A stretch of DNA of 62,635 nucleotides, filler included, from Kipferlia bialata (taxonomy: Eukaryota): assembly GCA_003568945.1 (NCBI GenBank). It is 5 parts of 5 records of this genome, joined end to end, with 100 filler letters (N's around TTAATTAATTAA, not from the genome) between each part and the next. Parts side by side here need not be neighbours in the genome. Positions count along the whole stretch, not along the records: positions 13,729 to 27,352 come from BDIP01000925.1; 4 more parts are not named here. One strand, 5' to 3'. Shown piece by piece: positions 49 to 41,068 of the stretch (positions are counted from its first letter, which is position 1; each line of letters opens with the position of its first letter). Under the pieces are notes generated by a model that was given only the letters and a program-made list of their open reading frames with translations, did not search any database and was not told the origin of the DNA. The position numbers and the translations under genes were made by a program.

Positions 49-90
49 GATCAGTCATGCTCTGGGACATACATACATATATGCACATAC

Positions 91-614: not shown

Positions 615-651
<37 letters not shown>

Positions 652-10300: not shown

Positions 10301-13300
10301 GAACCCACGGGCTCTCTCTCTCTCTCTCTCTCTCTCCTTCTCCCTCCCTGACCTAGTCAGCGTCTGCAGGTGCGAGATGACCTGGGGTCAGATCCGTCAA
10401 TACAGGGAGATACTGCACACACTAACCAAATGCCTACCCTCTCCCCCTCACCCACACCCTACCCCCTACCACGTCCCACATACCACCCACCTTGACCAGT
10501 GCTGTGACGTCTCTCCCCAGGGTCTGTGCCACATGGCCTAGGGCACCCGTGCGGGACGTGATGTCACGCTGCGACACAAGGCGGCGGTGCTCCTGCAGGT
10601 CAGGAGGTGAATATCTACACAGATAATAACCCTCTCGTTCCTCCCACCCTCACCTCGGATATGGCACTGCATATGGTCTGGAGGGTAACACCATTCTGGG
10701 CAGAGGAAGTAGACAGAGCGGGGGTTGCCTGGTGGTGAGGGGGAAGAGGCTCTCTATGAGTCCCATAGCAAAGTACATCTCCTGCACAATACAGTGCTCA
10801 TACCTGCTGCAGAAGTAGACACGACACCTGCAGGTCCCGTCTGACTATGCCTGGGGGTCAAGGGGGTGTATAGTCCCAAAGGATAGCTCAGTATGGCCCC
10901 ACACTACTGAGACAATCATCCCGACCACTGGTATATGCATGTGTGTGTTTGTGTGTCCCTACCTGACGTGCCGTCCAGGAACTGTCTGGCCAGCTGGGCA
11001 CTCCCAATGGCACTGACCCACCTGCACATCAGAAGGGGGGGGGGGGTAGTAATAGCTGGGGACACTACACCCACCTGTATGTGGCTGTGTAGAGCCTCAG
11101 TGCCTGTCTAACGGGGTATGAGTACAGGGCCCCTCTATACGGTCTGGACAGGACACACAGCACAGTACGGGCAGATAGGGTGCCACAGGTGAGGGCAGAC
11201 ACCACCTGGCCCAGACACTCCTTGAGGGTGGTAGGCCTGCTGCCTCCCTGGGCCCCCTCCCTGCCACTCCCCCTGCCCTTGTCCTGGTGTATCTGGCCTA
11301 TACCGGCACTGCCGCAGAAGGCGTCCTCGAAGAACAGGGCAGTCTCAAGCACACCTGCACAGTCAGTATACATACAGTCAGGATATACATACAGTCAGTA
11401 CACATACAGTCAGTATATACGGAGATCGTATACCCAGTATGGTGGCGGGAGTGTTAAGTAGATACGTATGTGTCTCAATTTGTGGTAGAGTTGACAGAGC
11501 TGTGGGTGTATCTATCTCTATGCCGTACCCAGTCCCTCCCCTTCCTTCCCCTGGTCGGTGTGGGCCAACTTGGCGGCACCCAGCCTGGGGGGTCAGTGTA
11601 TAGAAGCAGTGGGTATACACAGTATGGGCCGAGGTCTATGACACACCCACCTGAACAGAGGGTCTGCTGGGCTGTAGGACAGACTGGAGCTGGACACAGA
11701 CAGGGCGGTGGACGAGGTCTCGAGGGCGGCACACACCTGGGGGTCAGAGGCATAGGCCTATATACAATGTGGTTACATCCGTAATCACCACCCAACACGA
11801 ATCCGTATCCCACCTCCAGCATCGGCTGCACCCATGTGGGCAGGGTGTGTATGGCACGGCAGGCAGGGGAGACAAGGGTAGAGGGGGGGTCCCTGGCCAC
11901 AGGGGTGGGGGGGTCGCATGTGATGGATGTGATGTCAGAGACGGAGGTGGCAGTGTGGGGCAGGGGGGTGAAGGTGAGAGGCTCGTTGGACAGCAGTGCC
12001 GCCTCATCTGTCAGAACGTCCAGTAGGGGCAGAGACCAGTGGCCCTGCGGTAAGGGAGGGGGCAATATATATGTACTGCAACACACAGACAGACTCTTAA
12101 CATGATACCCTCCGACCCATACACACCTCTCTCCTCATCCTGTCCAGGTCGGAGGGAGTGGCATAGAACCGGTTCTGCACCAGCTTCAGAATCATACGGG
12201 CGGCACAGATCCTAGCGGGTTACGGCAGACAGACACAGACATCAACAGAGTGAAGAACCGAGAGTAGTGCTAACGCGGGAATAAAGAAGGAGTACCTATC
12301 CTTTGCGAACAGCATGTTGTTGCGCCCCTGCTCTCTCTCGTCCTGGGTCCTACTGACCACGGACTGCCACAGGGAGAGATACGCATCATCGTTGAAGTCC
12401 CTGGGGTGAACGAGGGGGACAGGATAGGACATTGCCACTCAGCTACTGTAGTGCCGCACCTGACGAATCCCGACACCATGTCGTGGTCTCTGGTGCCTAT
12501 CACCGGCCCCGCTGCCTGTCTCTGCCTGGCCCTCTCTGTATCCACGACGGCAGGGGGGAGGGACAGGGCCTGGCGGTAAAGGGGGAGGGGGGGCTCAGTG
12601 CAAGGACATGCAAACGCAGACACACACATTCATATAAACTATATGTGCCTTCACCATCATACCTTAGACAGTGGCCCCTGGTCGGCGTATGAGTGGTGGG
12701 GGGGTATGGGGAAGGACAGCTTCCCGGGGCTGGTGAGGCCCTTACAGGCCATGACTGAGGCAGAGAGGCCAGGGCCCCCAGCCACACCCCTAGTACCAGG
12801 GGAGGCACCTGACCCAGACCCAATGTCTGTGTGACCCATACCCATATCTCTAGTAGGGGTGTGGTAGGGACGGGAGGTGGGGTAGACAAGACGCCGGGGG
12901 TGGGCAGCGGTGAATAGGGGAGAGATGCCCTGGGTTGGACATGTGAGGGGGGCATAGGGGATAGAGGTTGGATATATGGAGTCATCACTAGACTGACTCA
13001 ATTAGACACCACTGGCAGAGTACCCACCTTGCTCTTGATGGCATTGTCCCTGAGGGGGTAGTTCTGTCTGTCGGCAGCTGCTGTGGACGTGAAGCCACCG
13101 GAGACAGAGTCTGTGTCGATGCCTAGGGGGAGAGGGAGCGGGATACAGGGACACACTACAGCACCCAGTGTCAACACACAGGTATTTCTTACATACATAC
13201 ATATACACCCATCAACACATGCCCCCTACCTGTTCCAAAGATCATGTCGATCCACAGGTGGAGCTTGGCAGACACCTCAGGGGACTCCAGACACTCCCGG

Positions 13301-13610
13301 TGCCACCTGGAGTCAGTATCAGTCAGGGTGCATGGATACATGGATACATGGAGACATGAATACATGAATACATGGATACATGAATAAGGATATAAGGATA
13401 TATGGATATATGGATATATGGCCACCTGGAGTCAGGGTGCAGGGACACCAGGGAGAAGAAGACATGGGCCGAGTCAACATATAAAACCACCAACCATTCA
13501 GACCAGGCCTGTCTCTCCCCACCTGACGAACTGTGCCGGTGTCTGTGTCCAGTCGGGCAGCTGCATGTGGCCCAGGGTGGAGGGGAGGGCACACTGCTCA
13601 TCAAGCTCAT
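1399..13610 (-). CDS. Large multi-exon BEACH-domain protein with probable C-terminal WD40 region (WDR81-like layout); 5' end off contig
   Basis: Exons near 13523-13610 and 13229-13306 splice to MQLPDWTQTPAQFVR|WHRECLESPEVSAKLHLWIDMIFG, matching the BEACH consensus LPxWxxxPxxFVxxHRxxLESxxVSxxLHxWIDLIFG. Minus-strand exons continue to a stop at 1399. GLVASCGDAVSHLDLRTGSLLDSHTCSGMVTSIGW (~2345-2460) is WD40-like. That all exons form one gene is inferred, not every phase was checked. Confidence 0.6.
1650..1826. repeat. Intronic tandem repeat, ~16-bp unit GGGGTCAGTAACAGTA, with an internal N gap
   Basis: Visible directly. On the minus strand the unit TACTGTTACTGACCCC contains the branch-point-like CTGAC, and the array abuts an acceptor. 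Confidence 0.9.
13331..13420. repeat. Degenerate 8-bp tandem repeat (CATGGATA/TATGGATA) between a real acceptor and its short echo
   Basis: Visible directly. GCCACCTGGAGTCAG occurs on both sides, at 13302 and 13421. Confidence 0.85.
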
Positions 13611-13628
13611 CTGGGGTGGGGGGGGGGG

Positions 13629-13728: not shown

Positions 13729-13734
13729 GTATAC

Positions 13735-16700
13735 ATGTCTGAGACTGGCCAAGGCACTCCCAGTCACACAGGGTAGGGGTATATGTATATATATATATAT
13801 ATATATATAGTGTTTCATGCATATCTGGTGGTGTCTTACCTACAATGGCAGCATGAGCAGCCAATGCGCTCCCACCATCACTGACCCCCAGTGGCTGATG
13901 GCTGTGTCAACCCTCATGCTGCACCCATCGAGGGCCTGGAGAAGGTATATATATCTCCAAAGGACGTGCTCTACCTATTTTCATATGGGTGGATACCAAT
14001 AATTATTCAAATACCCCTTTACATGTATACTCACATTTTCACCTCAGGTTGAGCAGTATCTGTGCCACCTTCTGCTGGCTCTTATACTCTGATGTGTGTA
14101 CTACATATGTATATATATGCATAAATATATATTTATACCTATTGTCGTACCCTCACCCCAGGTTGAGCAGTATCTGTGCCACCTTCTGCTGGCACTGAGG
14201 GCCACACACACTGCAGAGGGCATGGTGCCACTACTGAGAAAGGTTAGTATTTACAAAGACTAAGGATACAGTATATTTGTATACATATTTATATATACTA
14301 TTCCTCACAGCTCACACCAGGCCCTGCAGGCCCCAGTGCAGTCCAGGACCAAGACCCTCCCTCACCCTGTGGCACTGGTCACAGCACGCATCACGGCACT
14401 GACATCAACAACAGCCACAGAGGGAGAGGCAGAGGAGGAGGGTGCCGCAACCTCCTTTGCTGACGCGTTGGCCAGTGCACTGTGCACAGAGATTGATACA
14501 GGTGCATATATGTGTATATGTGTATGTATATATGTATATATAGATGTGTGATGCGTCAACTGTATCACACTGAGACTGACGCATAGACTGATGCTGATAC
14601 TGGTACTGAAATTGACACAGGTGCATATATGTGTTAGTTGTATCCACCGTCTATATGACTTTAGACACTAGACTGACACCAGCCTGCACTCTAGCCAGAG
14701 AGTCAGCCAGGGGCAGTGCCACCGATAGAGTCAACTGTAGACCAGCTGTGTCTGACCCCCTGTCCCGTATATGCGGCATCCTCTCCGCAGCTGTCTCTCC
14801 CTCGGTCTCAGTGTCACTGGCACAGGCATGCCTCACTCTATTAGAGATGCCATGCCCCAAGCACCCGGTGGCACTACTGAGGTTGGTATATATATATATA
14901 GATAGATATATATTATATTGGTATACTATATATACTCTTGGAGATACCATGCCCCANNNNNNNNNTATTATATTGGTATACTATATATACTCTTGGAGAT
15001 ACCATGCCCCAAGCACCCGGCACTACTGAGTGTGGGTGCATGTATATGTTTCTGGGAAAGATGTGGTATGTGAGATATTAAGATATTAACTGATTCTGAT
15101 TCTCAGGTCTGCCTCCCTCTGCGTGTCCAACTGTGCATCGGCACCAATGTTCGCAGACAGCAAGGTATTGATATGTCGCAATGTATATGCATATATATGT
15201 ATCTGCTATGGCACCCTGACTCCGAGGGGGACTGACTAGCCCTGTCTGTCTGTGTTGTGATGAACCATTCGCATATATATGTATATATATATATACATGT
15301 GTATGTATGTATATATATACATGCCGACTCTAGGCATTGGCTGACATGTCTGTCTGTGGTGCCAACCATACATATAATGCATTTGTTAATACTCCACTAT
15401 ATCCCCTCTCATGTATTATACAGACTGAGTCCTTTATCCTCTAACCCCAGTCCCTGACCGCCCTGTCTGTGTGTGGTGCCAACCTTCTGGTCTGTATGGC
15501 AGACAGTAGCCCACACTTAGTCATACCAGGTTTGTACTTACCCAGTAGTAGTATAGAGTGTATACGTCTACTGTTGCAGTAAACATATACATCTAGTGCA
15601 CCTTCCATACATATTGGAGAGATACTATCTTCCTTTCCCACCCACCCCAGAGCTCCTAGCCGAGTCCAGCCGTGTTGTGTCTGCATACACACAGGCACAC
15701 AGTGAGGGAGAGAGAGAGAGAGAGATGGTGGCCAGGGTGTACAGGGCAGCATTCGGGGCAGGGCTCAAGCACTCAGCTCAGCAGGTATATTATAGCATCT
15801 CCACTATGACATCGAGAGATGTCTTCTATTATCTACCTTTGAATTCATGTCATCTGACCTTCTAGGTCCGTCGCTTTGCCCTCAATGAGATTGCCCTTCT
15901 CCACTCAGTGGCAGACACTAAGATTGAGGGGCTCCTCTCAGCCAGGTATGTACACTTTGTAATACTCAGGTTTCTACAGGACTACCTCCTTGCAGTTTCC
16001 ACTCATCTCACGTAGTGATTTAGTTTATACTTCATCACGGGCTTCCCCCTAATCCCTAGGTATGTGCAGGACTACCTCCCTGTGTATTGGTGTATTACAT
16101 ATGTTCCATCATTACTATCCCCCTAACCCCCCAGGTTTGTGCAGGACTACCTGCTTGTTCAATGCCACATATAGTATACAGATGAATATAGTTTCAGCAA
16201 GACCATTATCCTTACATCCAGGTTTGTGCAGGACTACCTCCTTGTCTCCATCCAGGAGCACAGTATCGGTGTCCCTGCCCATGTTGCAGAGTGCAGAGAG
16301 GCATTCGAGAGGAGGGAGATGTTCAGACAGTTCCCAGAGTCAGGTAGTGTATATTTAGAAATACTATTTTCACATTTCTGCTATCCTTCCTCAACTCCAT
16401 AGTGCGGGAGATGACTATTCGTGCCGTTCTAATGTGACTCCCACTTCATTGTCATGCTGAAGTGCGTTTTTACCCCCAGGCAGTGTGCTGGATGAGTCTG
16501 AGCCTGAGGGTGTGTATGAGGGAATGAGGACAACTAGGTATGGGGGTGGTGTCAAGGTATTAACAATAATTATATATATGTGTGTGGATGTAACCTCAGT
16601 GCCTTTGTCGAGTCCATTGTGTCTGGCGTCCGTAAGCGTGTCAACAAGGCCCCCCATGACCCATGCAGTGTGGGAGGGGGGGCAGACAGAACAGCACCCT

Positions 16701-19700
16701 GCCTCGATGACCTCCACTCAAAGTATGTTCGATATTGATTCATATAGGATTTCTCCAGATACTCTGTTTACTCAACGTACGCTATTGGGTTATGCGCTCA
16801 CATGTGTATATCCACATCCTCTCACCCCCCCAGGACCCTTGACCGCCTCATCAGAGATGTCACAAAGTGCATCATCGCTCAGTCACTCAAGGTATTTGCA
16901 GTTGTAGATATACTGGAGTCCAACCACTAAGCACATAGTATTGTCACCTCACCCCTTCAAGTCTTTGACACTGCTGTCTAGTCCTACTTTTCATGAAGAT
17001 ATGTAGACGTCTACCAATTCTGACACCAAAAGGTCTTTGACGCCGCTGTCTCCCTTGGCTCCAAGACATTCTCCCCCGCCCTGTGTTTCTTTGGCAGCGA
17101 GAGGGCACTTCTGCTGTCCCTGTCGGCATCTCTGTACCTGTCAATGACACCAGAGGGGTTGTACGAAGGTACAGACAGCGCAGTCAGTATATATATCCTA
17201 CTCTACTCTCCATTTACATATATATATACAGCCTCACCCCCTAGCCATGTCTGTCCCTGAGACACTATCAGCTATTCAGTGCATCATTACTACCATTGCT
17301 ACCTACTCATTACTCACCCCCTAGCCATGTCTGGGCCTGATGGCGAGGCAGGCCCTGTCTGGATACACGAGAGACAGGTATATTTATTTTCCCTATATAT
17401 TGGGAACAGATACCCATATATCCGTCAGTGTGTAGTCTTAGTCTCATTGTCCTTACCCCTTCAGGTCCTTGTGAGCACCCTGTCCCTGTCATGTGTGTAT
17501 GTATATATACTGATACTGATACTACTCCATACATTATAATGCATACACATTGGTTGCTTGTCTAACCCTCCAGGTCCTAGTTGGCACCCTGTCCCTGTCC
17601 ATGCTGTCCTGTGGGTCAGCATCAGACGCTCAGGTAGGAAGATACTCAGCACAGAGTGGACATATACTATTTCACTTAATCAGCATCAGACGCTAAGGTG
17701 GGGAGAGGGAGTGTCTGATAATCTGTCAAGAGTGGAAATGACTCTAATAGCCTTAATCACTGGACTGTGATGCCAGGTGGCAGTATTAATTAATATCCCG
17801 CCGCATGACCTTCTCACCCATCTCCCTATGTGTATATATCCCTCCTCACCCCTAGCTGGACTATCAGTCCCTCCTCCACTCCGCCTCTCGTGTCATGTCT
17901 GTCCCCAAGCCCCCCTTCTCGGCCAGCGACAGAGTCTATGTGGTATCCATGTACTGTGCCACCCTAGTCAAGTCCATGTCCACACACCTAGCCCTGGGGG
18001 GTGAGGTGGTGCCTATGCTGCTGGAGTCACTGGGTATGCTACCTGTACCGGCATGTGCCCTGGTACTGAGGGAGTTGAGACGCTCTCTCCTCACTGCACC
18101 TGAGCATATTAAGGGTGTAGATGTATCTCACGCTGCCCTGATGGCTGCCATCCTAGGCTCCCTATCCTTAGACACCCAGTCCCCTCTGGAGCTGTCTGTC
18201 CTGGCAGCTCTCTCTCCCTCCCCCATCCCCATACCCATATCCCCCACTAATGATACCTTCCAGACCCTTGTCTCTGCAGTTGGGTACGGTGTCCCAGAGA
18301 CACTAGGTGATAGAGTCAGACAGGGTGTGATGATGGCACTTAAGGGTGTGGAGGGATGCCCTCTCTCCATAGTCTCCCATGTGCATCAGATGTCATCCCT
18401 GACTGATACAGACATTGAGGGGCTAGATGAGTGTGTGTCTAGTGCATCTCTTGGCAGTGTGGAGCAGAGAGCTGCCCTGACCCTAGTATGTGCACTGAAT
18501 GGGCAGGAGAGGCATGTCAACTTCGCAAAGGAGCAGGTGCGTTGTTGTCTCACTCTGGTATAGATACCAGGTGTGTTTGTGTGTTCTAACCTCCAGATCC
18601 CTGCCCTCCTCCCCCTCCTCGACCCCAGTCAGCCACTCCCAATGCTGCTAGTAGGTGGGGATCGGTACTCTACTATAGTGTTAGAATGGCAATGCCTACA
18701 GTATCAGTGCATTAGTGTTCATTGATACACTGATACTCACCTCCAGGCAAGGCCCTGAGGCACCTGGGTACCCTGCCCTCCCCCCTGCCCCCTCTGCCCA
18801 TGCCCAAGACACTGGAAGAGGCCATACCTGTATTCACACTGTGCGTCAGTCTGTGTCTGGCATGTGCCACAGTGGATGCAAGGTATTAATATACATATAT
18901 ATATCATACTTGTATATATATATATATATATATATACATATATGAATGTATATATATATAGATGTGTCAGTGTGTCAGTCTGGCATGTGCCACGGTGGAT
19001 GCTAGATATATATTTATATATCATACACTACTCATATATATTTGTATATATAGGTGCGTATACGTATATATATATCAGTGTCAGTCTGTGTCTGGCATGT
19101 GTCATTAGTGGATGCCAGGTACATACATTGTACTGCAAGAGTATGTGTTCTCTCACTCTGTCCCGTTCTGACCCCTCAGGGATGGATCCAACCTGTGTGT
19201 GGCATATGTGGAGAAGGGTGAGTATTGGACACACACCTACATGTTTGCGTTTACATACTGGTTGTATCATGGATTGACACTTCTGACTAAATACTCCCAT
19301 ACTTCCCCTCATCCCAGCCCTTGCCATCGGTGTCAAGTACAAGCGTCGCTTTGCATCCACCCTCAGGTATATGGTAATTTCACATTATTCAGATGTCAGA
19401 GAATCGTGTCTATCTATGGTATGTAGTATTACTTTTATAGTACAGCAATTGGTGACATACCCTTACATGTAGGAGAGGGGTGGGTGAGATCCTTGGCTCC
19501 AGGGACTTCCTCCTGGCAGCCACAAGGAGTGAGACAGTCAGAGGTATGTATACACTGTATATCATACATGAATTCTGTATACTGACACTATTTCAGTCAT
19601 TGTGTGGAATAGTTGCAACAAGGAGTGAGACAGTCAGAGGTGTGTATATGTGTAAATGGTAGATATAGATGAGTATCATTCTCTTCATCTCACCCACAGC

Positions 19701-22700
19701 TTCCTATGTCTCCCTGTGCACCAGCGCCCTATCATATTCTTCTTTATTCTTCTAGTCTCTTTCTCCGATATATATATAGACATATGTGTGTGTATTAGTA
19801 TGGATACATTTGTGTCTCACTCCCAGCTTCCTATGTCTCTCTGTGCACCAGTGCCCTGTCTGATGCTGTCAACCACCTGTCCAGTGTGCATCCCTCACTC
19901 ATGCCGGTATTGGAGGTATGTGGAATAATAAGTGATGTGTGTGTATTTCACACACATATAGTAGTGTTCTCAAACACATATTCTATGCCTCTCACCCCTA
20001 GACCCTCTCTGCCATGCGTCAGTCCGAGGCCGAGGAGTGTCTGCCCACTGTACTACCCCTGGTGCTCAGCTGCATATTCATGACAGTCGACACAGAGAGG
20101 TATCGGCTCTGGATATTGTATGTATGTAACATAGTTCTCTTCTTATAGAATATTGTGAACTATGCGACAGTAGACACGAGTCATTAATTATAGGCGCTGT
20201 ATAATATATGTACACAGTGTGTATATACATGTACTCTCACCCCCAGTGGTCTCCCCCCTGCCCCCATGTTGGCTGGAGCTGTCCAGTCTCTGGATGATAT
20301 ATATTGTATATCCATATATATATATATATATATATATAGATAGATAGATATTGAATGATAGATATACTCTAACCTAAGTGGTCTGCCTCCTGCCCCCATG
20401 CTGGCTGGTGCTGTCCAGTCCCTAGATGAGGCATCTCTAGTGGGGCCAGCAGAGGCACCAATCCTGTCCACATACGCACTCAGGCTCAAGGTAATCATAT
20501 ATATATGTATATATATATATACAATGTCTCTGTACGTACATGTCTGAGGCACCGATCCTGTCCACATACGCACTCAGGCTGAAGGTAATCATATATATAT
20601 GTATATTTATATATACAATGTCTCTGTACGTATATGTCTGAGGCACCAATCCTGTCCACATACGCACTCAGGCTCAAGATGTGCAGATGTATATATATAT
20701 ATATATATATATATACATTGTACATTATTGCATTTCCCATGTCTCTATATGCAGAGGCACCAATCCTGTCCACATACGCACTCAGGCTCAAGGTAATGCA
20801 TGTATTTGTATATATATTACTGCAAATTACCAAGTGTATTTGTACATCGGATCTTTAGGCCATCTCTGCCCTACCTATGCCTATAGATATTCATTATAGA
20901 ACAACACAGTCTTGTACTATCGGGGTACTATCTCACTCTCAGGCCGTCTCTGCCCTGCACCGCATTGTGTCCATTGTATATATCTATCTATATATGTTTA
21001 TTATGTTATAGTGTATGTGGATACATATATACTGCACATGTCTCACTCTCAGGCAGTCTCTGCCCTGCACCGTATTGTGTCCAATGTCCAATGTTTATTG
21101 TATATATTATATTATAGTGTATGTGTATTCATAGACTGTACATGTCTCATCCCCAGGCCGTCTCTGCCCTCCACCGCATTGTGTCCAATGCCCCTCCCTC
21201 CGTGGCATCTAGTGTGTTTGTGATGGGGGTGGACATCATGAACGCTAGAGATACAGGTATGTATATGATACATGTAGGAGTCATGTCCTTCTTTGTGTCC
21301 ATCATATTACGTTTAACTCCAGCTGCCTCTGGGGCTCTCTCCCCCCTCTCTGCCTCCTGTCCCGTTGGCATATTCAACACAGTCTGTCCACAGGCCATCA
21401 TGCAGCCAGACAAGAAGGTAGAGTAGTGTATGTGTTGAAATATTATAATGATATATAGATGTATATTCAAAGGTAATAATATTGTAGCCAGACAAGAAGG
21501 TGTTACACGCATGTAGATACGAATGTATTAGATATATAGATGAATGTTTATAGATAATAATAATAGATGAATCTATGTGTATACATCTAACCCCCAGGCC
21601 TCCACGTGGGGTGCCCCTGCCCGTGGTCTGCAGCACATCCAGCGGTGCATGAGGATGGTTGTATCCCATGCCACGCCCACCCCTGCCCTGGGTGCTGCCC
21701 TGTCCTCTCTCTTTGGATCACTGGTGGGGACAGGCTGGGCCAGGGAGACTAGGTATAGATGGGTATATGTATATATACAATAGTATATACATAATTGTAG
21801 TTGATTATATGTATCGGTGTCTATATCTCTATATCACTGGTGGGTACAACAGGGTGGGTCATTGTTACTACAGTATTATCGTATTATGCTCTCACCCCCT
21901 CATGGAGACTGTGGAGCAGACCATCACTCTTCATATATATCCATGAATAGATGATTGTATGGGGATGTATTACTACAGTATCATACTATGCTCTCACCCC
22001 CCAGGGAGACTGTGGAGCAGACCATCGCGGCTGCCCTCCTCAGATACCCTGACCCCCATGCTGCACTGTACACTCTGTTCAAGGAGGTATGGATGGATGT
22101 ATATGTGTGTATATATATATGTGTGTTTATATATATATGTATATATATATAGACAGAGAGAGAGAAAGTACATATATCCCTGACCCCCTTTGCTACACTC
22201 TGTCCAAGGAGGTATGGGTGGATTTATATGTACTCACCCTCAACGTCATATATATTATCACTCTTGGGCAATGTGGGCCATCCTCTAGACACATATCAGC
22301 ATGGATAGTGATGAATACATTGACACCTATGTATATTCCTTCTCCCACCCCCAGGGCAACGTGGGACATGATCTAGACACGTATCAGCTAACATATATAT
22401 ATATATGTATATATATATGTATATATATATGTATATATACATATTCCTTCTCTCACCCCAGGGCAACGTGGGCCATGCCCTGGGTGCAGGTGGCACCCCA
22501 TACGCACAGGCCAGCTGCGTCATAGCAGGTATGTATGTATATATGTGAGTGTGTGTGTGAGAGAGAGAGAGACGTTGTCCCCCCCTTACCCCAGGTCTTG
22601 TCACCTTCCAGACTGTGGTCCTAAAGGGTCAAGACGCCATGTCCACCGTTGACTTGGTCAGACTCATATCCCCTGCCCTACTGGCCGGTACCCACTCTGT

Positions 22701-25700
22701 CAGACCAGCAGCATTTGCAGTGGTGCTACAGCTGCACGAGGCTGCGGTGGCTCAGGTGGGTATAATGGAGTGATATACGATAGTAGTCTCATGGCACTAT
22801 ATCGGCATGTTAAATGGGTTTCCTTTGTCTATTCACCTCTTACCTCTTCTCTCACTCCTAGGAGGCTGCCAACCCCACAGTGGGAGGGGGCATGACCAAG
22901 CCTGAGAGGTGGCTCCAGGTATGGCATATGTAGTAGTGATACTCAATGAAGCCGGTTATTCCATTGCTATTGCATAGCATCCATCTAACCCCCTAGGCCG
23001 TCGGCCTGTCCTAGTATCAGTCAATCTGAGTGTATATATTATGTAATCCATCTAACCCCCTAGGCCGTCGGCCTGTCCCCCGAGATGGTTCAGACCATGG
23101 ACATGCACTTCAGAGTCACATCCGCACAGGCAAAGTTCAGGTATTGAATGTATATCATCTAAAGATGTAAGAGGGGTGTGTTCTGTATATAGACAGAGTA
23201 TTGTGGCTTTAGAGTCACCTCCGCACAGGCTAAGTTCAGGTGGGTATTGAACGTAGTATATTTCTTCTTTTACTAGGAAATTGAAAACGGCTATTTGGGG
23301 TATGTATGTTGATTAAGAGTGAAGATTCCATGCACTCACCCCAGGGAGCTGTTCCGTGTCATGACCCCAGCCGAGGGGATGCAACACGCATGTCTGCCAG
23401 GTATCAATGGTGATGGGTATATTGAATCTACCATGTCTATGATATCGTTCTAACTTCATTTTGTTGATCGTATCATTACCATGCATGTCTGCTAGGTATC
23501 AATGGTGATGGGTATAGTGGATGATATGGCATTGCCACACCCCACTGATTCTAGTTGCACTTCTTACCTATACGTGTCAGTTTTGACACCTCATTCACCC
23601 GAGACCCTAATACTGCCTACACCGTGTCCTATATATATATGTATATATACTATCCTAGTCACTAGTTAAACACATCCAGTATATATATCATAACCAACCC
23701 CAGACCCCAATGCTGCCTACACCGTCTCCGTGTCCGACCTCTACCACTCAGCTGACAAGGGAGGGGTGGCTGCGTTCAAGACAGCAGCAGCACTCGGAAA
23801 GTGAGTTCGGATCATCCTCTCTCTCTAACGATATACCACCCTCCCCTGCCCCCTTCCTTCTCTCTCTCTCTATATGTAAATATACATATCTGTATCCTCA
23901 CCCCCCAGGGCCTATGACCTCCTTGGCGAGCTGAGGAACAGAGAGCTGGAGGTGGTGGCAGCGGCTGCAAAGGTACATATCTAGTGTCTACATATGACAT
24001 ATACATTCATCATGGATATGTATGTATTCATATGCAGAGCTGGAGGTGGTGGCAGCGGCTGCAAAGGTATTCATATATACTTGGAAATTGTTGAAATTGC
24101 AATGTATGACTGATAGGTCTCTTCTAGTTGAGAGTTATCATACGTAGGATCATCACTGCATATGTCATTGTTGCTATATCAGACATTGATTCTCACCCCC
24201 CAGGCCGCCAATGTGGAGAGAGAGGCCCTCCTGAGACAAAAGATTGAGAAGGACAGGGAGAGAGAGGTCAATGTCCTAGTTGCACCCGAGAGCCCACCTG
24301 CACAGAGACCGGCAGAGGGAGAGGGAGAGAGAGAGAGAGAGAGAGAGGCTGTCCCTGAGAAGGAGGGTGATACTGAGATGGTGGTCAGGCAGAGGAAGAT
24401 TATGGTGGAGGCGCCCACCGAGAAGGTATCGTGTAGTTTTGTGCCTATCGACATATATATGCTTGTATTGTCTCACCTCTAGGCTGCCGCTGAGATGTTG
24501 GCTGTGTCCACCCCTGAGACTGATGAGACATCATCCACCAAGGAGTGTATTGTGTGTGCCTCTCTGCTGGACAAGCCACCCAACCTGGGGGGACTCGCTA
24601 GATCAGGTGAGGGATGATACTTGTAGAATACTCGAGTGTTTACTATCTGAAGTATGGGTATATAGTCATGGATGTGTTGAATATGACTGTACATGTTAAC
24701 TCCTGCTGAGATCTTTGGCATACCATGTAAGTATCATCTACCCGACTCGGCTAGCACAAATGTCGTACCTATACATATGTATATATATACCTGTTAACCC
24801 CAGCTGAGATCTTTGGCATGTCGAGCCTTGTCCTTCCATCCCTGTCAGTCACAGGGGACCCGGTGTTTAAGGTATATATAGAGTGGCTTAATCATATGTA
24901 TTGTATCGTATTCTTACTGGAATCCAGTCACAGGGGACCCGGTCTTCAATATGGGGCATGCCCAATGACACGTGTATTCTAGATGCTTACTCACCTATGT
25001 TCATACTCACCCTAGGCCCTGAGTGTGTCTGCCCACCTTCACGTACCACTGCAGGCTGTCCCCCCTAGTGACCTTAGGCCATGGCTCAGACAGAAGCAGA
25101 GGGAGGGGTATGCCCTGGTGGCACTGGAGCAGGTGTGGTACATATTATCCATAAGTATAGATGTTCAATTTATCATATACTGTCTTGATACTTTGTTTCT
25201 GTATGCCCTGGTGGCTCTGGAGCAGGTGGGTGTCACCGGTGTACCTTAGTATTTGTTGTTGTGTTGTATCTGTTGGGCGTATAGATGCCACCCATATCAC
25301 CATCACCTTACCCCAGTGTGAGACCAGTGTGTCCCTCGAGAGTGCCTCCCTTCCAGCTAGATGTGTCATAGTGCTAGGCAATGAGAGAGAGGGAGCACCA
25401 GACGACATACTGGGTAGGGTCTACTACATATATATCGCTACCTATACATCCCATTGTGTATATAGCATTGCAGTCTTCCTCCTTGACTCCTAGGCATGTC
25501 TGACCTCCATGTCCCCCTTGATCCATCTCTCTCTCTCTCTATCTATCTCTCTCTTTCTCTCTCCCTCTCACCCCTAGGCATGTGTGATCTCCATGTTGAG
25601 ATCCCCCAGCTCGGATGCATCAGGTGGGTACATTGCAGTATTATATCAATACATAACTGTTTCAATATATTCATATAGATTTATGGTTAGTGGTCTCTAT

Positions 25701-26062
25701 CACTATCCAGCTCGGATGCATCATGTGGGCGACGGATACTCTACATGGTTTCAATACAATATGTATTTTCCCTCATCAGTCACCCTCTGAATATACACAC
25801 TGATGTTATCCCTCTCTAGCTATACTATTGTTTTTAGTCCCCCCCCCCCCTGACAACTATTATACCTCTTTCCCCAGGTCTCTGAATGTGCACACTGCAG
25901 CTATATATATACACATATAGATTTGTATATATATATATATAGTATATATATATAGTATTAGTATATATATATATATATCTTTCCCCTCACCTTAGGTCTC
26001 TGAATGTGCACACTGCGGCTGTCCTCCTAGAGTGGAGGTGGATATCCCAGCACAAGCTGTAG
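13735..26062 (+). CDS. TARBP1: TARBP1/Trm3-type tRNA (guanosine-18 2'-O)-methyltransferase: long helical N-terminus plus C-terminal SpoU domain; 5' end probably off contig
   Basis: Spliced C-terminus: ECIVCASLLDKPPNLGGLARS|AEIFGMSSLVLPSLSVTGDPVFK|ALSVSAHLHVP..GYALVALEQ|CETSVSLESASLPARCVIVLGNEREGAPDDIL|GMCDLHVEIPQLGCIR|SLNVHTAAVLLEWRWISQHKL*. All three SpoU motifs are present. About 11 kb of upstream same-strand exons fit the large Trm3/TARBP1 size. Confidence 0.88.
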
Positions 26063-26816
26063 GAGGGGCAGGAGTCAAGTACCCTTGGACCACCGACAGT
26101 GACGCATTGCACGATACACTGTCGGTACTCCCTTCTTGATACGGTGACACGTGTCTCGCGGCTAGAGATTAGACCTTAGGACGATCCTCAGAAGCTTTGC
26201 AGGCAGACCAGTATTGTCTGTTCTTAACCATCACATTTGTACAACCGGTCGGTATCGGGGACATGCATCCCCCTGACCGTCAATAGAACGTTCGTGTCAC
26301 TATTCCTCCTGGTAGTTTGACTCCGTCGAACACAGTTAACCACATGGTTGGATTCTACTGAGACCCGTGAATCGGGAGACCGCATTTGTGATACGTTGCT
26401 ATCTGCATCGACCGTCGCTAGCAAAGTAGGTAAAACTGCTTTAATAGCTGTGTGAATTACACACTGTGTAACACACAAATCCAGCCACACTACGGTCCGA
26501 CATAGATACACGTCCACGCATCATAGTATACCAAAGGAAGTACGGTTGGCAGCAGTGACCCTACTACATCTAGGATCGTGAACATAAGCTATCCGATTGA
26601 GGCGAATAGGTGGTTTTGACGTCCAAAGTTTGGCACTTTGCTCCATTCCCAAATGTATACTTGTCAATGTGTCCATAGTGAAATTGCTGCTGAACTGTGT
26701 AACAGTAAGACACTGCCTCATACTAAACTTGTTCTCTAAATGTCATAGTCTAGCAGGCCAAACAAGCTGAATGTAGAGACACCATCATGTGACCAGGCAC
26801 CACACTTACAGCCCAT

Positions 26817-27352
26817 CTATGTATATTCAACATCACCAAACACCTCAGGGAGAGTGTCTGTGCGTACTAAGTAGGCATGGTTCTGGTCTGCCACTAGAAG
26901 GATGTGGGTGGGACTGAGCACACACAAGGTGGCATAGTAGCTTGCTCGGGTCTCCAGCCGTACCCAATCCTTCGTCTCCCACTCACCAGACACTACGTCA
27001 TAAGTATGTATGGCCACTATCGTGTCCGTGGCCCCTTTAGCTCCTATGATGACATGACTGGTGGTACCAATTGACATGCGGCGATACTCTTTGAGTGGAG
27101 TAGGGGTGTCTTTCACCCATGGAGAGTGAATGAATTCTGATCTCACGTAGGGGGCTGAGAAGTGGTCATTTGTGTAGCTGCCTGTGTCACTACGGAGCAT
27201 ACCGAAGATGTGTGGTACACCAGATACAGTCACACACTCAAGAAGACTCATCGGATAGGGTAGGTCCCGTAGTCTAGTCCAAGTCTGCTGCACTGTATCA
27301 TACTCCCACACAGAGTCGTGACCTCCATGTGTACCGCGGTACCCACCAGCCA
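26817..27352 (-). CDS. Kelch-repeat protein, intronless in the visible part, 5' end off contig
   Basis: Open frame from the contig edge: AGGYRGTHGGHDSVWEYDTVQQTWTRLRDLPYPM..VPHIFG..IHTYDVVSGEWET, which are Kelch GG/YD/W motifs. Confidence 0.8.
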
Positions 27353-27452: not shown

Positions 27453-27735
27453 CCAGGGAGGAGAGGTATCACCATTAGTAGGGCCTGGTGGGGGGGGGGG
27501 GGAGAGGAGATGTCACTAGTCTGGAGATGTCTCTGTATGACACCAGGTTCTGATGGGGATGAGATTGTGGTCTGGTGTTTGTGTTTCCCATATGTCTGTT
27601 GTATATGTTGGTTCGTTGGTGTGTCTTCTTGTTGGTGGTGCACACTTGCTTGACCGATTGAGTTTGTGTTCATGCATATATGTCTCCACTACTCTGTCTG
27701 GCCAGAGTTCATTTCTCTCATACCTGACCCCTCAG

Positions 27736-30700
27736 CTTGGTTTAGAAGAGAGACATGCAGGATCTGACTCTGGTGGCATGCTCGGATACACAGCCACTGA
27801 CCCTGAAAGACACCCCCACCCCCACTCCTCCGAGGACAGGGACGTCAGGGTGCGCCTGGCAGAGCTGTGCACCCTGTGGAGCATAGCGCAGACGCCATTC
27901 TACTACGTCACAACTAGGTAACGCTGCTTATCTTTATATATGTACGGGTAGACTCCATCCTACCCTGGCACAACAGGTGGGGGCATATGAGGGTGCCAGA
28001 TCTAACGACGCCGACAATTATGTGTCCTCTCTGAATTGCTATGAGCACCATGTCTCTGTGTTCCCTAGCATACCTGTACCATACCCTTGTGACCCCTCAC
28101 CCAGGGCTGAGCTGACCGAGGTTGTGTCCTTCCTGGCCATGCACTCTGCCATCGGCATCGACCTCGAGCACTCCTCCCTCAGCTACCACGGCACGGTGTC
28201 CCTCATCCAGGTGGGGTAATAGGTTATATGTATATATATACTGTATATACAGGTGGGGTTAAGGGTTGTGCCAGTGATCACCTTCTGTATGAACTCTGCC
28301 AATACAGACAGGCTGTGTAGACCTCCCTCCCTCACCCCGCAGATCTCTGTCCCTGGCTATGACTTTGTGCTGGATGCATATGCCCTGTACCCCCACATGC
28401 ATCTGCTCAGAGGTATCATTGACACTCTCACACAGGATATTGGTGACACTGGCAGTGGCGTGGATACATATTTGTGTGTCAATGAGTGTTTATCATGCAT
28501 ATATATATTGGTCAGAACGTGCAGTACCTGCAATCACAAGGGCGATATCTGTTCAGAGTTTGTTGCAATTGTACACAATTGCCATGCATGTATGTGCGTC
28601 TTCACATCCTCCTACTTCTGCCAGGTGTGTTTTCCGACCCCACCATCATCAAGGTGCTACATGGGTCCGACAATGACATCCTCTGGCTCATGAGGGACTT
28701 CAGACTCTACATAGGTGTGTATAGACATGTCTCTCATTCCATGTATGGGTTTGTATATGTACCAAGATGGGTGTGGGGTCAATACCTCAGACTCTAGATA
28801 GGAATGAACTATATCAAGCGCTTGTACAGAGTGCTCATTTAAGAATGTATATATGCGACAGGGAGGTTGGCATCATATAGCAGTGTCTGGTTAGGCAACA
28901 CCATCCTGTCCCACTGTGGTACCTGTTTACTTGTCAATCCTCCCCCCATCCATATATCCATGCATTCTGTAACACTGGTCCCGACCCTGACCCCAGTGAA
29001 CCTGTTTGACACGGGTAGGGCCGCCAGGGTGCTTAGGAAGGGGGCCGGCCTGGGGTCACTGCTGAGGGAGTGCTTTGGGATACAGATGGACAAGGAGCAG
29101 CAGGTGGGGACACACGGTGCATATACATATACACTGCAACTCAGTCACTGGCTCTACTGATGGATACACGTCTCTGGTACTGTCCACCTACCCCCCTTCT
29201 TACCCCAGACGTCAGACTGGTCCCTCCGGCCTCTGTTGCCAGTCCAACTGTTCTATGCCAGGTACCAACCCTACATATGGCACTTCAACCCGTGTATACT
29301 AACCGTCTGAGTGTGTATCCCCCTACCTCATACAGGTGTGACACACACTGGCTGCTGCCTCTGTTCCACCGGCTGACTGCCCTCCTGGCAGAGAGGGGCG
29401 GGTATGCCGAGGAGCAGGCATGGCTACACAGCAGACAGGTACCAGTGGTAGTGGCTATGTGTATGTGTAGAAGTATATAGTGAAGTATATATATATAGGG
29501 TATGGCTACACAGCAGACAGGTACCAGTGATAGNNTGAAGTATATATATATAGGGTATGGCTACACAGCAGACAGGTACCAGTGATAGTGTCAGTGGATA
29601 TCAAGTATAGAGTGGTCTTGATCTGCGAGGTCGCATGTCGTGACTGGAAATTATATATATATATCTATATTCACAAGTATGTGAAGTTCCCTGTTTCTAC
29701 GTGGTGACTGAGTATTCCATTCCGTCTCTTTCCGCCTCTGACCCTAGGTGTCGCTGAAGGTGTTTAGACCCACACCCCCAGACAATACTCGCCATCTACC
29801 CCTCCTGGCAGATACCTACGAGGGAGACATGGACCGACACCGCAGGGGCAGGGGATCCCATGTGCACACACCGCGTATGGGGGTGCGGGGCCAAGCGTCT
29901 GTGTCACCTGTAGCCCAGGCACTCCTTCTGCACCTCACGGCATATGTGGACACACTAGGCGTCTACCTCAATCTGTCGCCAGGTATGTATGATTTAAATG
30001 TCGTCGCGCCCTAGTGTGGACCTCCCATAGCCTCCGTCTTCATGTAGCCTCTCTCTCCTCTCTACCCCCAGACACTGTCTGTGGCGGACGGGACCTGGCC
30101 CGATTGGCTCTGTCCCTCTCTGTCATCCCACCCTCCGCCATCTCGAGGGAGAGTGTCCTGTTCGGCCTCTCCCTCAGTGCCCCCCCTCTCATAGCTGCCA
30201 ATGCCGCAGAGATAGCCCTGCTGGCCCAAAGGGTGCTGCAGTACAGAGCCCCCCCGCCACACACCCAGCCACACACCCAGCCACACCACGGCCATGGTCA
30301 AGTATACCCCCCTGGGGAGAGGGTGAGGGAGAGAGACAGTGGAAGGGAGAGCGCTATGAGAGACAGAGCCCCCTCCTACGGTAACACCCGGCCCCCCTCC
30401 CAGCCCAGTGGGGGTTGGGGGGCGAGAGAGGTTATGGCACCGCCTGGGGGTCCCCCACCCCCACCCCAACCCCAATCCCAGTACCAGTACCAGTATCCAG
30501 CCACCAACCCAGGTATCAGTAGTATGTTTGTCACTCTAAGCTGCTCGATACCTCCTCTCCCTCCACTCTTACCCCAGGAGTGCACTGTCTGGATGACCTG
30601 TACCATGCGGTGGGGTGGGACATGCCCCAGGACAATAGAGGGGGGTGGGACGGCAGGGGGAGAGACAGGGAGAGGGAGAGAGCGAGGGAGGAGTGGCAGT

Positions 30701-31811
30701 GGGAGAGAGAGGATGCTGCGGAGTCAGATGGAGAGACAGACGGTGTAACTGCTCTCAGTAGTGGAGTCGACATCTTTGCAAGGTGAGGCGTTGTGTCATT
30801 ACTCATGTAACGATACACCAGAGTGAATGGGGGACTGTGTTGCAGAATATGGATTGGATTCTGTTGTGTTACCCCCTTACTCATTGCAGGGCTCTAGACC
30901 AGAAGCTCATCAAGCAGAGTTCTAGGGACAAGCACGGTCCCCCCCAGAGTGGGAGGGGCAAGGAGATCTTCAGACAGTTTGGCGATGCCTCGTTACATGG
31001 GGCGGCACCTGGATACAGAATAGGTGGGGTAGACCTAACGAATGCTGATGTATATAGTTGCCCTACTGTAATATACTGTACTGTATATAGAGGTATGTGT
31101 CGTGCCCTACTGTAATATACTGTACTGTATATAGAGGTATGTGTCGTGGGTGGGTGGCCCTTGAGTCAAAGATCTTGATGCTGCTAATACTTCAACTTGC
31201 ATACACCACATCCCCCTCTTCCCCCAGGTGACATAGGCCCAGGATCTAAGGTCTCAGCCGTCACAGGAAACTCCCTGTCTGTTTCCGTCGAGTTTGCGTC
31301 TTCTGTAGAGGGAATGTCTGTGCTGGTATGTGACATAAGTAATATGACATAACTTGGCATAGTCTTGTAGTTGTATATAGCTTTACACAACTAATCTTGG
31401 TAAATATCCGGAAACATCGTTGTCTCCTGAATCACAGCTCATCGCGTTGGTGTTTTCTGTGACACTTGTGTAGTTAGGCCTTTAGATTTTCGTGTCTTCC
31501 TCTTCCCCTCTGTCTCTGAGTCTAACCCCCAGGACGTGCTGCACCAGACAGGTATCGACCAGGTGCTGGGGCGGAAGGAGAGGGAGGACATCGCCCACAT
31601 TGGGGCAGGCAGAGACAAGGAGGGGCCTAGCCGCAGGGAGAGGGAGAGGAACAGACGAGAGGCCAGGGGGAGTAAGGGGAGGGAGAGAGACGGTGATGGC
31701 AGTCGAGATAGCCGATCTCGCTCCTCTGGTCATAGAAATAGTCACCCCCGCGACAGGTCTGGGGAATCGAACCCAGGGAGAAGGCGAGGTTATGATGACC
31801 CAAGATTGTAG
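27736..31811 (+). CDS. RRP6: Exosome-associated DEDDy 3'-5' exoribonuclease Rrp6/EXOSC10-like; true start not resolved
   Basis: Spliced: AIGIDLEHSSLSYHGTVSLIQ|ISVPGYDFVLDAYAL..|GVFSDPTIIKVLHGSDNDILWLMRDFRLYI|VNLFDTGRAARVL..MDKEQQ|TSDWSLRPLLPVQLFYAR|CDTHWLL. Exo I, II and III motifs are intact. Ends in a low-complexity R/G/S-rich exon with a stop at 31811. Confidence 0.9.
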
Positions 31812-37615: not shown

Positions 37616-40373
37616 ATGTCCGGCACGTCTGGAGCTAGTAAGAGCCGAGCTGTGATTAATGAAATTGAAGAGGTATATATGTACTCTCGTGCTACTGTCA
37701 CATGCGTTCTCGTTGTGTATGCACGCTATTCAGTGTATTCTTACCTATGTGGCTGCAGACTAAGATGATACTGCATCTGCCGTGGTGTCACACTGAGTGA
37801 TACTGGATTGATTGTTGAGTACTCTCTCTCTCTCACCCCTTGATAGTCCTGACTCCATTCCTACCCCCCCCCCCCTTCACTCTCTCTATATTGAGTCTCG
37901 GTGACTGTGTGAGTCTCTCTCTCTCTCCCCCCCTCTCTCTCACTCCTTTCCATCCTGACCCTAGGTCCTTGGCACAGGGTATAGTAGTCAGTATATTCAC
38001 ATACACTCTCTCTCTCTCTTTCTTTATCCATTTATCACTGTATGATCCCATCTCACCCTAGGTCCTTGGCACTGGGTATGACACATCAAATGTCGGTGCT
38101 GGTATGACCAGGTTTAGTGAGGTAATAGCAAATATGTATATGATTGTATACTCTCCACATACCTTTTTGCACTTGGTCTTGCCACCCCTCCCACCGAGAG
38201 GTACTCCTTTGCAATATTGCATATATATATATAGATATACCAGACACATATGTATCTGGCTGTCTGTCCCTACATTCATATCTGTTTACCCTAGTCCTTT
38301 GCGGCCCCTCCCACTGAGAGGGCAAGGGGCAGAGAGAGAGACAGAGACGCATATGGGACAAGAGGGCCCCTGAGGGGAGACTACAGGTATGCGCTTTATA
38401 TACACCCAACATGTTGTTTCCTTCTGTATTTGTATGTGATGTGTATTGTTTTATCTTTCCATTAACGTCCAGAGGCGACCTCACTCCACAGATGGGCAGA
38501 GACACAGCTCCTAGGTATATATACATATCCACACTATATTGGTGTATGTATGTCCTGTATGTATGTATATACTATAGTATTAGACACACTCCACGTATGG
38601 GCAGAGACACAGCTCCTTGGTAGCATAGAAGTATATAATTGATATTATCAGATAGGTACATAATTATTATTAATAATGAATATAGTATAGAATATATACC
38701 CACAGATGTCTCTTTGTAATCAACACTTTCAGGGCCTCCATAGTAGCCCTAGACCGTCTCTCTCTCTCTCAAACGCTCCCTATATACCTGTCATACTCAT
38801 TAGTATCTAATAATGCAGAACTTCCATCCTTCTCTCTCTTCTTCTTCTCTCTTCCTTCTTCTTCCTCTTCCCTCTTTCTCTCTAAGCCCTCAATCTACTG
38901 TATCTGTCTTTCCCCAAATTCCAGGGCATCCACGCTGACCTGGATGGTCTGTCCCTCATCCTATCACTACTATACTATATAATTATGCAGTTATATGTAT
39001 TCATGTATATATGCATGTACATACTCATATGTATCTCATTCCAGGGCATCTACGCTAACTCTGGACAGTCTGTCCCACAACCAGTCATTCGCTCAGACAA
39101 GGTATAGACATATGAATATATATATACGTAAGGGATGTAGGATGTATATGGATGTTTGTGTATATAGTGTGTCTGTCCCACAACCAGTCCTTTGCTCAGA
39201 CAAGGTATGAATAGTATATATATATATATATACGTATATACATTTCATTCGTATGTAAGATAGAATAGTGATAATGTGTGTGAGTAGATGTGTCTGTCCC
39301 ACAACCAGTCATTTGCCCAGACAAGGTATGAATGTATATTTGGTTATGTATATATTCATGTTTCTCACCTAGGATGAAACAGTCGAATACCGACTGAGAG
39401 AAGGAGTGAGGTTTCATTATATAAGTGTGTATCTATATTCTCTTTTGTTCCTTATACCCCAGAGGTGCCAGAGAGAGGTCCGAGTCATTCGAAGACGCAG
39501 CAAACAAGGTATTATTCTGTATATACTTATCTATATAGGTCCTATAATAATAGGAAGACGCCGCAAACAAGGTATTGGACTATTTTGGTATTGACTGATA
39601 AGTATGTATCGATGCTTTCATGTAATATATATATATACTATATATCGTAGATAGTCTCTCTTCATATAATGACTTCAGGCCATATCCATAGTGGATGCTG
39701 TCCTATCCATACCACCTAGGCGCATATGATATGCATTGTATTGTATATATCTTTATCTATATGTATTTAGGTACTAATATACCAGGCCATATCCATAGTA
39801 GATGCTGTCCTGTCCATATCACCTAGTTATTACATGCATTGTATTATGTATATACATATATATCTGAGTGAATATAGATATATATACTAATATATACTAA
39901 TATACCAGGCCATATCTATTGTGGATGCCGTCCTGTCCATACCCCCAGACACCTATATATATAGTATGTCATACGTATCAAATATTTACATGTATATATT
40001 CTAACATGTCAGGCCATATCCATATTAGATGCCGTCCTGTCCATACCCCCTAGGCGCATACACATTCCTATGTATATGTTGTCTATGTATACTTACAGCA
40101 TATTTACAATTCCATGTACTAATATGTAGGCCATATCCATCGTTGATGCCGTCCTGTCCATACCACCGAGGCGCATACACATTCCTATGTATATGTGTGT
40201 ATACTTACAACATATTAACATATTCATACAATAATGTCATCACATATATACAGTATATATGAATTAGCATATATGTACTAATACACCAGGCCATCTCCAT
40301 AGTAGATGCTGTCCTGTCCATACCACCCAGACGCATATCCAAGGACCAGATCAGAGATATGCTGAATGTATAG
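37616..40373 (+). CDS. Small multi-exon uncharacterised protein (~145-160 aa) with echo-filled introns
   Basis: MSGTSGASKSRAVINEIEE|VLGTGYDTSNVGAGMTRFSE|SFAAPPTER..GDYR|GDLTPQMGRDTAPR|ASTLTLDSLSHNQSFAQTR|GARERSESFEDAANK|AISIVDAVLSIPPRRISKDQIRDMLNV*. Splice phases are consistent, and the frame is independently supported by synonymous differences in the echoes. Confidence 0.7.
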
Positions 40374-40431
40374 AGAGGGGGAGAGAGAGAGATTATCCAA
40401 GGACCAGATCAGAGACATGCTCAATGTGTAG
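39679..40431 (+). repeat. Array of five partial copies of the last exon's 5' end plus one post-stop copy of its 3' end
   Basis: AG|GCCATATCCATAGTNGATGCNGTCCTNTCCATA at 39679, 39786, 39909, 40013 and 40130. The real exon is 40290-40373 and the tail copy is 40394-40431. Confidence 0.92.
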
Positions 40432-41068
40432 AGAGAGAGAGAGAGAGAGAGACAGAGTATGCTCGTCCATTATTCTCAAAGAGTCCAATATAATGTGTAA
40501 GATAGGAGGGGGAGGGATAATTGAAAATCTTTCAGTTGTCTCTTGCTTGGAGCAGTTGGTATTTCACTGTTATTGCAGTAACCCATCAAGAAGATCTTTG
40601 CTGGCGAGTGAGTTCGATTCTCACAGGAGACATTTATCAGAACATATACTACACAGTTGCGAGTGGGAAGTGTGTGGAGTGTATGAGAAGCTACACCCTC
40701 AGAGTTTTTGTAAACACGTCTCGGAGGTACAAGCTCACTATACTTGTGAACACGTATTGAATATATATGTATCAACCACTCTCTGTCTCATGGAGCCAGT
40801 CAGCAATGGGAGGAAGTGACAAAGCTGCACCATATAGTATGTTATATATATTTTGTGTCTCTGCACACAAAAGTGTGAGACCCTGTCTGCCAAGAAAACT
40901 TCTCTGGACCCTTAGTCAATACCTCACTGCCAAGGCCCTTGGCCCAAGGGGCTCTGGTTAGGGAAATAATCTGATTCACTCAGTATCTGCTATGTCCTTC
41001 AGGAAGGCCAGTCCAACTGTGGTGTCTGACCACTGAGCAATGAAAGGCCTAGCTCCCTGCGCTACCAC

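What the first reader, a model, noticed from the sequence alone, without database searches (positions are those of the whole stretch)
20247..21200. Ordered architecture and polarity: tail echoes then head echoes within one intron, decaying with distance
SEEN: exon 20379-20490 is followed by three tail echoes of EAPILSTYALRLK (about 20546, 20640, 20753; cca/ccg and ctc/ctg silent). Then come three head echoes of the next exon, AVSALHRIVSN, at about 20859, 20943 and 21053, before the real exon at 21157. The head echoes lengthen toward the real exon (about 15, 31, 35 nt) and the two longer ones differ only silently (gcc/gca, ctg/ctc, cgc/cgt). All are in direct orientation and not interleaved. 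INFERENCE: introns grow from both ends by serial ~100-bp duplications straddling each splice site.
Basis: partly seen in the sequence, partly recalled or inferred. Interest (0 to 1): 0.7.

Follow-up and report, generated by a model that had tools for sequence, protein, structure and literature searches.

The report
Silent-biased exon-end echoes in protist introns
Several genes of the free-living protist Kipferlia carry spare copies of their exon ends inside introns, skipped in the one transcript checked, and these copies differ from the real exon mostly at silent codon positions, which likely means they were taken from other, quite different alleles by recombination and would be a trace of hidden sex.

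Summary
The echoes are real. The gene is a 42-exon Kipferlia bialata protein with a SpoU methylase domain. Its 666-nt intron holds three tail copies, a central 66-nt GT-AG unit and three head copies. A spliced contig skips them. In five echo-rich genes, 37 of 64 introns hold 71 echoes, none inverted or interleaved, adding about 106 nt each. This resembles lancelet 'mirage' repeats and the human F7 repeat; earlier scan notes report such echoes in other genomes. The polarity follows from tandem duplication plus selection, and the claimed decay with distance fails (identity 20 versus 17 pairs). The unusual part is the silent bias: 95 silent versus 49 amino-acid differences, pN/pS about 0.2, against 0.35-0.51 for simulated neutral decay. 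It holds between echoes too, but genes C-E alone give 0.41. Likeliest cause: exchange between divergent alleles (about 55%). No second allele was found to test this.

The parts
13894..26059 (+). Gene A: 42 exons, 1518-aa partial protein P0001 with a C-terminal SpoU methylase domain; likeness to TARBP1/Trm3 is recalled, not tested
   Evidence: source name 'hypothetical protein KIPB_004361, partial [Kipferlia bialata]'
20247..20297 (+). Head echo of exon 24 with its own AG; 51 nt, 6 differences, all silent
20379..20490 (+). Exon 24 (real)
   Evidence: RNA contig offsets constant
20491..21156 (+). Intron 24, 666 nt, from the first donor to the last acceptor
20452..20639 (+). Two near-identical 94-nt units (exon tail + donor + 55-nt spacer); spacers differ at 2 of 55 sites; a recent tandem duplication
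20546..20584 (+). Tail echo 1, GT kept, two silent differences
20640..20678 (+). Tail echo 2, identical to the exon tail, donor GT lost
20751..20792 (+). Tail echo 3, 42 of 42 identical, GT kept
20793..20858 (+). Central 66-nt GT...AG unit, probably the ancestral-size intron (inference)
20859..20873 (+). Head echo 1, eroded, 13 of 15 identical (one V-to-I, one silent)
20943..20973 (+). Head echo 2, 31 nt, one silent difference, AG kept
21053..21086 (+). Head echo 3, 34 nt, three silent differences, AG kept
21157..21256 (+). Exon 25 (real)
37616..40373 (+). Gene B, 7 exons, 13 echoes; five head echoes in intron 6 show up to three codon states at the same silent sites
40393..40434 (+). Echo of the end of gene B including its stop codon, behind the gene; 38 of 42 identical, three silent codon changes
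48008..54317 (-). Gene D, 14 exons (own model, open frame to a stop), 19 echoes

Best explanation
The echoes are direct-repeat copies of exon ends with their splice signals, about 100 nt apart and skipped in the spliced contig, likely born as tandem duplications and likely copied or refreshed from divergent alleles by recombination between homologous chromosomes. Shown: position, direction, unit size, skipping in one RNA contig, and a silent excess stronger than decay gives. Inferred step 1: duplications fall anywhere, but only those holding one splice site (or the stop codon) leave the reading frame intact, which fixes the tail-then-head order. Inferred step 2: the spliceosome takes the first donor and the last acceptor, as exon definition would. 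Inferred step 3: the short exon-like core is the only alignable part, so unequal crossover or conversion with another allele's exon renews it. Echoes then differ from the neighbouring exon, and from each other, by the population's silent polymorphism (about 10-20%) plus a little later decay. An old hybrid or homeolog as donor would look the same.
For: Echo versus exon: 95 silent, 49 non-silent; pN/pS 0.18, or 0.205 counting each site change once without the 3 junction bases, bootstrap 0.13-0.31. Neutral decay with the same detection gives 0.35-0.51. Fourfold sites 64 of 371, zerofold 45 of 1216; a 2:1 expectation is rejected (p = 8e-6; unique changes p = 1e-4). At twofold third positions 14 transitions and 1 transversion, against 37 and 33 at fourfold sites, so the filter is the amino acid and not the position (11.6 expected, p = 1e-4). 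Echo versus echo: 30 silent, 20 non-silent variable sites, ratio 0.23, four sites with three states. Non-silent changes run GC-to-AT 28 versus 9, like decay; silent ones are nearly symmetric, 39 versus 32. pN is lower within 15 nt of the splice site (14 of 769) than beyond (28 of 609; p = 0.004), as renewal from the splice-site side predicts. No clonal simulation went below 0.43; outcrossing with short-lived echoes gave 0.12-0.25 among detectable copies. Stop-codon echoes show that no splicing role is needed. Metamonads lack NHEJ, and all fornicates examined lost Rad51A and have two Dmc1 (PMC8516963, passages).
Against: No second allele was seen: run X1 shows no other letters on 15000-25890 and a metagenome scan found no relative. 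Genes C-E alone give 0.41, which fits plain decay; their frames are my own. The outcrossing simulation fitted only after I raised the cost per copy: the first settings gave 0.19-0.86 and 0.29-0.39. Spacers are more diverged than silent sites: only 15 of 70 echo flanks are recognisably homologous to the real flank, though the test would catch 87-92% at 20% substitutions, so faster intron turnover or repeated renewal of the core must be added. The distal rise in pN could partly be alignment overrun. Sex has not been observed in metamonads (PMC8516963, passage).
Confidence: 0.55

Rival explanations
1. Plain mirage repeats: slippage or sister-chromatid exchange duplicates the exon end, the copy decays neutrally, and the silent excess comes only from the exon's own silent drift.
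For: Spacers 1 and 2 of intron 24 differ at 2 of 55 sites; 14 of 39 adjacent flanks within arrays are homologous; non-silent changes lean GC-to-AT; genes C-E give 0.41; TA runs are common in these introns.
Against: Genes A and B, whose frames come from or agree with database proteins, each give 0.17 (p = 7e-4 and 8e-3 against 2:1); 1 transversion at 260 twofold sites; echo-versus-echo differences are also mostly silent; cores are about 93% identical (144 differences in about 2140 sites) beside spacers that mostly cannot be aligned.
Confidence: 0.2
2. The echoes are themselves under selection for their coding sequence, because they are sometimes translated or often replace the real exon end during DNA repair.
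For: They keep what function would keep: codons, GT in 25 of 31 and AG in 36 of 40 echoes; several substitutions are conservative.
Against: The RNA contig has the exon lengths of the echo-free model at 7 of 7 anchors and shows no other letters; using any of the five echo splice sites of intron 24 gives an early stop; echoes also lie behind stop codons; heritable collapse in a clone gave 0.46-0.63. Contigs drop rare isoforms, so minor use is not excluded.
Confidence: 0.15
3. Assembly artefact: two alleles were concatenated.
For: Silent differences are what alleles show; X1 may be the source of the assembly.
Against: Separately assembled contigs of 0.9-3.2 kb run through many echoes with no difference at even depth of about 450; concatenated alleles would put a head copy before a tail copy, seen in 0 of 10 introns with both.
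Confidence: 0.03

Closest known systems
Lancelet 'mirage' minisatellites (Adh3, troponin C, globins BflGb6/BflGb9, PGBD5): PMC3087553 and PMC3902484, passages read; the original Adh3 paper was not seen
   Same: Direct repeats spanning an intron-exon boundary, at either end; many keep AG/GT; splicing undisturbed; units of 10-160 nt; unequal crossing-over proposed.
   Different: Here 37 of 64 introns in five genes carry them and intron length follows copy number; spacers are mostly unalignable, unlike the 81-100% identical BflGb6 units; echoes also follow stop codons; the passages read report no silent-site excess; the host is a fornicate protist.
Human F7 intron 7 37-bp VNTR: PMC1557585, abstract and outline read
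   Same: The first unit spans the exon end; identical downstream donors stay silent and the most upstream donor is used.
   Different: One locus, donors only, near-identical units. Here acceptors are duplicated too and the last one is used.
Intron gain by duplication of proto-splice sites (Rogers model, as cited in PMC3087553)
   Same: Short internal duplications containing splice signals.
   Different: No new intron or exon is shown here; existing introns lengthen.

Membership tests
Mirage-type splice-junction minisatellite | Direct repeat whose unit spans an exon-intron boundary | tested here: met
   71 anchored echoes, 0 of 128 inverted, 0 of 7828 foreign
Mirage-type splice-junction minisatellite | Many copies keep the splice signal | tested here: met
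   GT in 25 of 31, AG in 36 of 40
Mirage-type splice-junction minisatellite | Normal mRNA is not disturbed | tested here: met
   One spliced contig, constant offset at 7 of 7 anchors; gene A only, rare isoforms not visible
Mirage-type splice-junction minisatellite | Head-to-tail units alike over their whole length | tested here: inconclusive
   Met for the 94-nt pair in intron 24 and for 14 of 39 adjacent flanks in arrays; only 3 of 31 single echoes have a homologous flank
Mirage-type splice-junction minisatellite | Copy number varies between haplotypes or cells | not testable with these tools
   One sample only; no relative found
Duplicated alternative (mutually exclusive) exons | Copy is a whole exon with both splice sites and an open frame, found in mRNA | tested here: not met
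   Copies are exon ends with one splice site; all five echo sites of intron 24 lead to a stop; not in the RNA contig
Mobile introns (Introners) or transposon-derived repeats | One shared element at many loci | tested here: not met
   Each echo matches only its own neighbouring exon; self-comparison of the window shows local repeats

The most novel reading that the evidence does not exclude
A single Kipferlia genome holds a library of other alleles: each echo is a piece of exon captured from a different, 10-20% silent-divergent homolog by a Dmc1-only, NHEJ-free recombination system. Introns in echo-rich genes then grow in steps of one intron length, and the echoes give population diversity and evidence of sex in a lineage where sex has not been seen.
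Probability: 0.4. Interest if true: 0.82.

Novelty: new variant of a known kind. Interest (0 to 1): 0.62.

Why it matters
The architecture alone is a known kind of repeat. Two points go further. First, the density: in affected genes most introns above 136 nt owe their length to these copies, which gives a simple mechanism for intron length and thousands of natural tests of splice-site choice in a reduced spliceosome (87 of 174 proteins, PMC6679479, passages). Second, a non-coding copy that follows the genetic code needs an explanation. If it is allele capture, one draft genome would allow an estimate of silent diversity and a test for outcrossing in a metamonad, and the same test could be run on mirage repeats elsewhere.

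Tried and rejected
No whole genome is held, so the genome-wide regression could not be run; 64 introns of five echo-rich genes and 96 predicted introns of three other regions were used. Reads were laid only on 15000-25890, so genes B-E have no RNA or DNA check. No run is on record as RNA; X2 is a guess, though its contig is spliced. The protein search for gene D found nothing, so its frames are my own. The metagenome scan found no relative. My gene finder took echoes for exons in genes B-E, so those models were set by hand for an open frame; gene B agrees with P0002 from exon 3 on. Four unanchored hits were dropped before the counts. Nested inside-out splicing was considered and rejected as the general rule: only 8 of 37 echo introns have both kinds. 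A mutable third position was rejected: twofold transversions are nearly absent and 70 of 95 silent differences involve no CpG. A decay gradient was rejected. The first simulation settings did not reproduce the ratio. Literature searches listed no paper on such echoes in Kipferlia or on silent bias in mirages; the library lacks most subscription papers, and no supplements were read.

Full report
Setting. The window is several contigs joined by N spacers. The finding lies in contig 13729-27352. A search with its longest exon returned one protein, P0001, named by its source as KIPB_004361 of Kipferlia bialata, with a SpoU methylase domain at residues 1369-1507. P0001 maps exactly onto 42 exons, among them 20379-20490 and 21157-21256 with a 666-nt intron between. 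K. bialata is reported to have 124,912 GU-AG introns (PMC5874029, passages).

The observation. All six echoes are present, direct and ordered as described, and the silent changes are correct. Between the last tail echo and the first head echo lies a complete 66-nt GT...AG unit, the size of an echo-free intron. DNA contigs of run X1 cross the head echoes with no difference (20763-22084) and include the junction into a tail echo; the stretch 20303-20762 is not spanned by a listed piece. A 3249-nt spliced contig of run X2 keeps a constant offset to the echo-free mRNA model at 7 of 7 anchors, so the first donor and the last acceptor are used across this intron. Use of any echo donor or acceptor of intron 24 would give an early stop.

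How general. I examined all 41 introns of gene A and 23 introns of four other echo-rich genes (B-E, models set by hand). At a strict threshold there are 71 echoes (31 tail, 40 head; 4 unanchored hits dropped) in 37 of 64 introns: 0 of 17 introns up to 136 nt and 37 of 47 longer ones. Controls: 0 of 7828 foreign exon ends, 0 of 128 inverted. Units have a median of 103 nt, and intron length rises by 106 nt per echo (r = 0.875). No interleaving in 8 of 8 introns with both kinds (10 of 10 at a lower threshold). Echoes also follow the stop codons of genes B and D. They are patchy: only 3 of 96 predicted introns in three other regions have one, and those introns are shorter (medians 84, 132, 76 nt) and less AT-rich (48-56% against 60-64%). 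These five genes were chosen because they show repeats, so 37 of 64 is not a genome-wide rate.

Polarity and gradient. A tandem duplication across a donor leaves a tail copy behind the donor; one across an acceptor leaves a head copy before it. Duplications holding a whole exon, a whole intron with both flanks, or exon only would alter the protein. The order is therefore forced (inference). The gradient is not general: nearer copies are more identical in 20 pairs and less in 17, and nearest versus farthest is 7/7/3 for identity and 8/4/5 for length in 17 arrays. Copies within one array mostly share the same far boundary (for example 48, 48, 48, 41, 49 nt), which points to one founding breakpoint and later expansion.

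The silent bias. A dead copy mutates at all sites while its exon accepts silent changes only, so pN/pS should be near 0.5; my simulation with the same detection gave 0.35-0.51. Observed: 95 silent and 49 non-silent differences, 0.18; 0.205 counting each change once and leaving out three junction bases, bootstrap 0.13-0.31. Fourfold sites differ at 64 of 371, zerofold at 45 of 1216. Twofold third positions show 14 transitions and 1 transversion, fourfold ones 37 and 33. Echoes differ from each other in the same way (30 silent, 20 non-silent variable sites, ratio 0.23). By gene, A and B give 0.17 each, but C-E give 0.41, not different from decay; gene D is a low-complexity protein that may be weakly constrained, which I did not test. 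Beyond the splice signals, 55 of 70 echo flanks cannot be told from unrelated introns, although the test has 87-92% power at 20% substitutions.

Mechanism. For two sequences to differ mostly at silent sites, both lineages must have spent most of their separate history as working exons. Within one clonal chromosome this did not happen in any setting tried (ratio 0.43-1.13, 0.52-0.63, 0.46-0.50). With outcrossing the result depended on settings: 0.19-0.86 in short single runs, 0.29-0.39 among detectable copies with long arrays, and 0.12-0.25 when copies are costly and short-lived, where pS of 0.10-0.25 and pN of 0.02-0.06 bracket the data. The lower pN near the splice site (14 of 769 against 28 of 609) is what renewal by crossover inside the core predicts, and it appeared in several outcrossing runs. 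The repair background fits: no NHEJ in metamonads, Rad51A lost and Dmc1 doubled in all fornicates examined, sex not observed (PMC8516963, passages); Dmc1 is described as able to recombine mismatched sequences (PMC11514202, start of abstract in a search listing). None of this shows a second allele, and the very divergent spacers need an added assumption of fast turnover in TA-rich DNA.

Comparison. The structure works like the lancelet mirages (PMC3087553 and PMC3902484, passages) and the human F7 repeat (PMC1557585, abstract). It meets three mirage features, is inconclusive on whole-unit similarity and could not be tested for copy-number variation. Earlier notes of this scan describe the same kind in other genomes, one with silent differences; they are unchecked leads, and they gave me the mirage papers. 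Searches listed nothing on this in Kipferlia.

Verdict. Real; a new variant of a known kind. The density and the amino-acid-respecting divergence of non-coding copies are the parts worth following. Interest 0.62.

Noticed in passing
window 40393-40434 (+) and about 47856-47893 (-): Echoes of the last codons including the stop codon lie behind genes B and D, so the process is not tied to splicing.
   Followed up: yes
window 30-13620 (-), 27453-31900 (+), 55300-60700 (+): Three regions are nearly echo-free (3 of 96 predicted introns) with shorter, less AT-rich introns; echo load looks gene- or region-specific and goes with TA runs. Cause unknown.
   Followed up: partly
window 39509-40289 (+): Intron 6 of gene B holds five head echoes with up to three different codons at the same silent sites; the clearest single example of the silent bias.
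   Followed up: yes
acceptors throughout gene A: A CTNAC-like motif sits about 7-11 nt before the AG, like the fused branch point and 3' splice site described for diplomonads (PMC6679479, passages); echoes keep this element.
   Followed up: partly
window 30-13620 (-): A long gene of about 60 predicted exons; its first exons read like a BEACH domain followed by WD40-like repeats (recalled, not tested).
   Followed up: no
window 27736-31756 (+): Exons that read like an Rrp6-type 3'-5' exonuclease (recalled, not tested); the echoes near 29500-29590 flank a 2-N gap.
   Followed up: no
window 26817-27352 (-): An intron-free open frame with kelch-like repeats at the contig end (recalled, not tested).
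   Followed up: no
window 1651-1830: A short tandem repeat inside an intron, built on a branch-point-like ctgacccc motif and interrupted by an N gap.
   Followed up: no
window 23600-23650 and 24230-24400: Many unrelated DNA contigs pile up on these low-complexity TA and GA-rich stretches; the joints listed there look like repeat noise.
   Followed up: no
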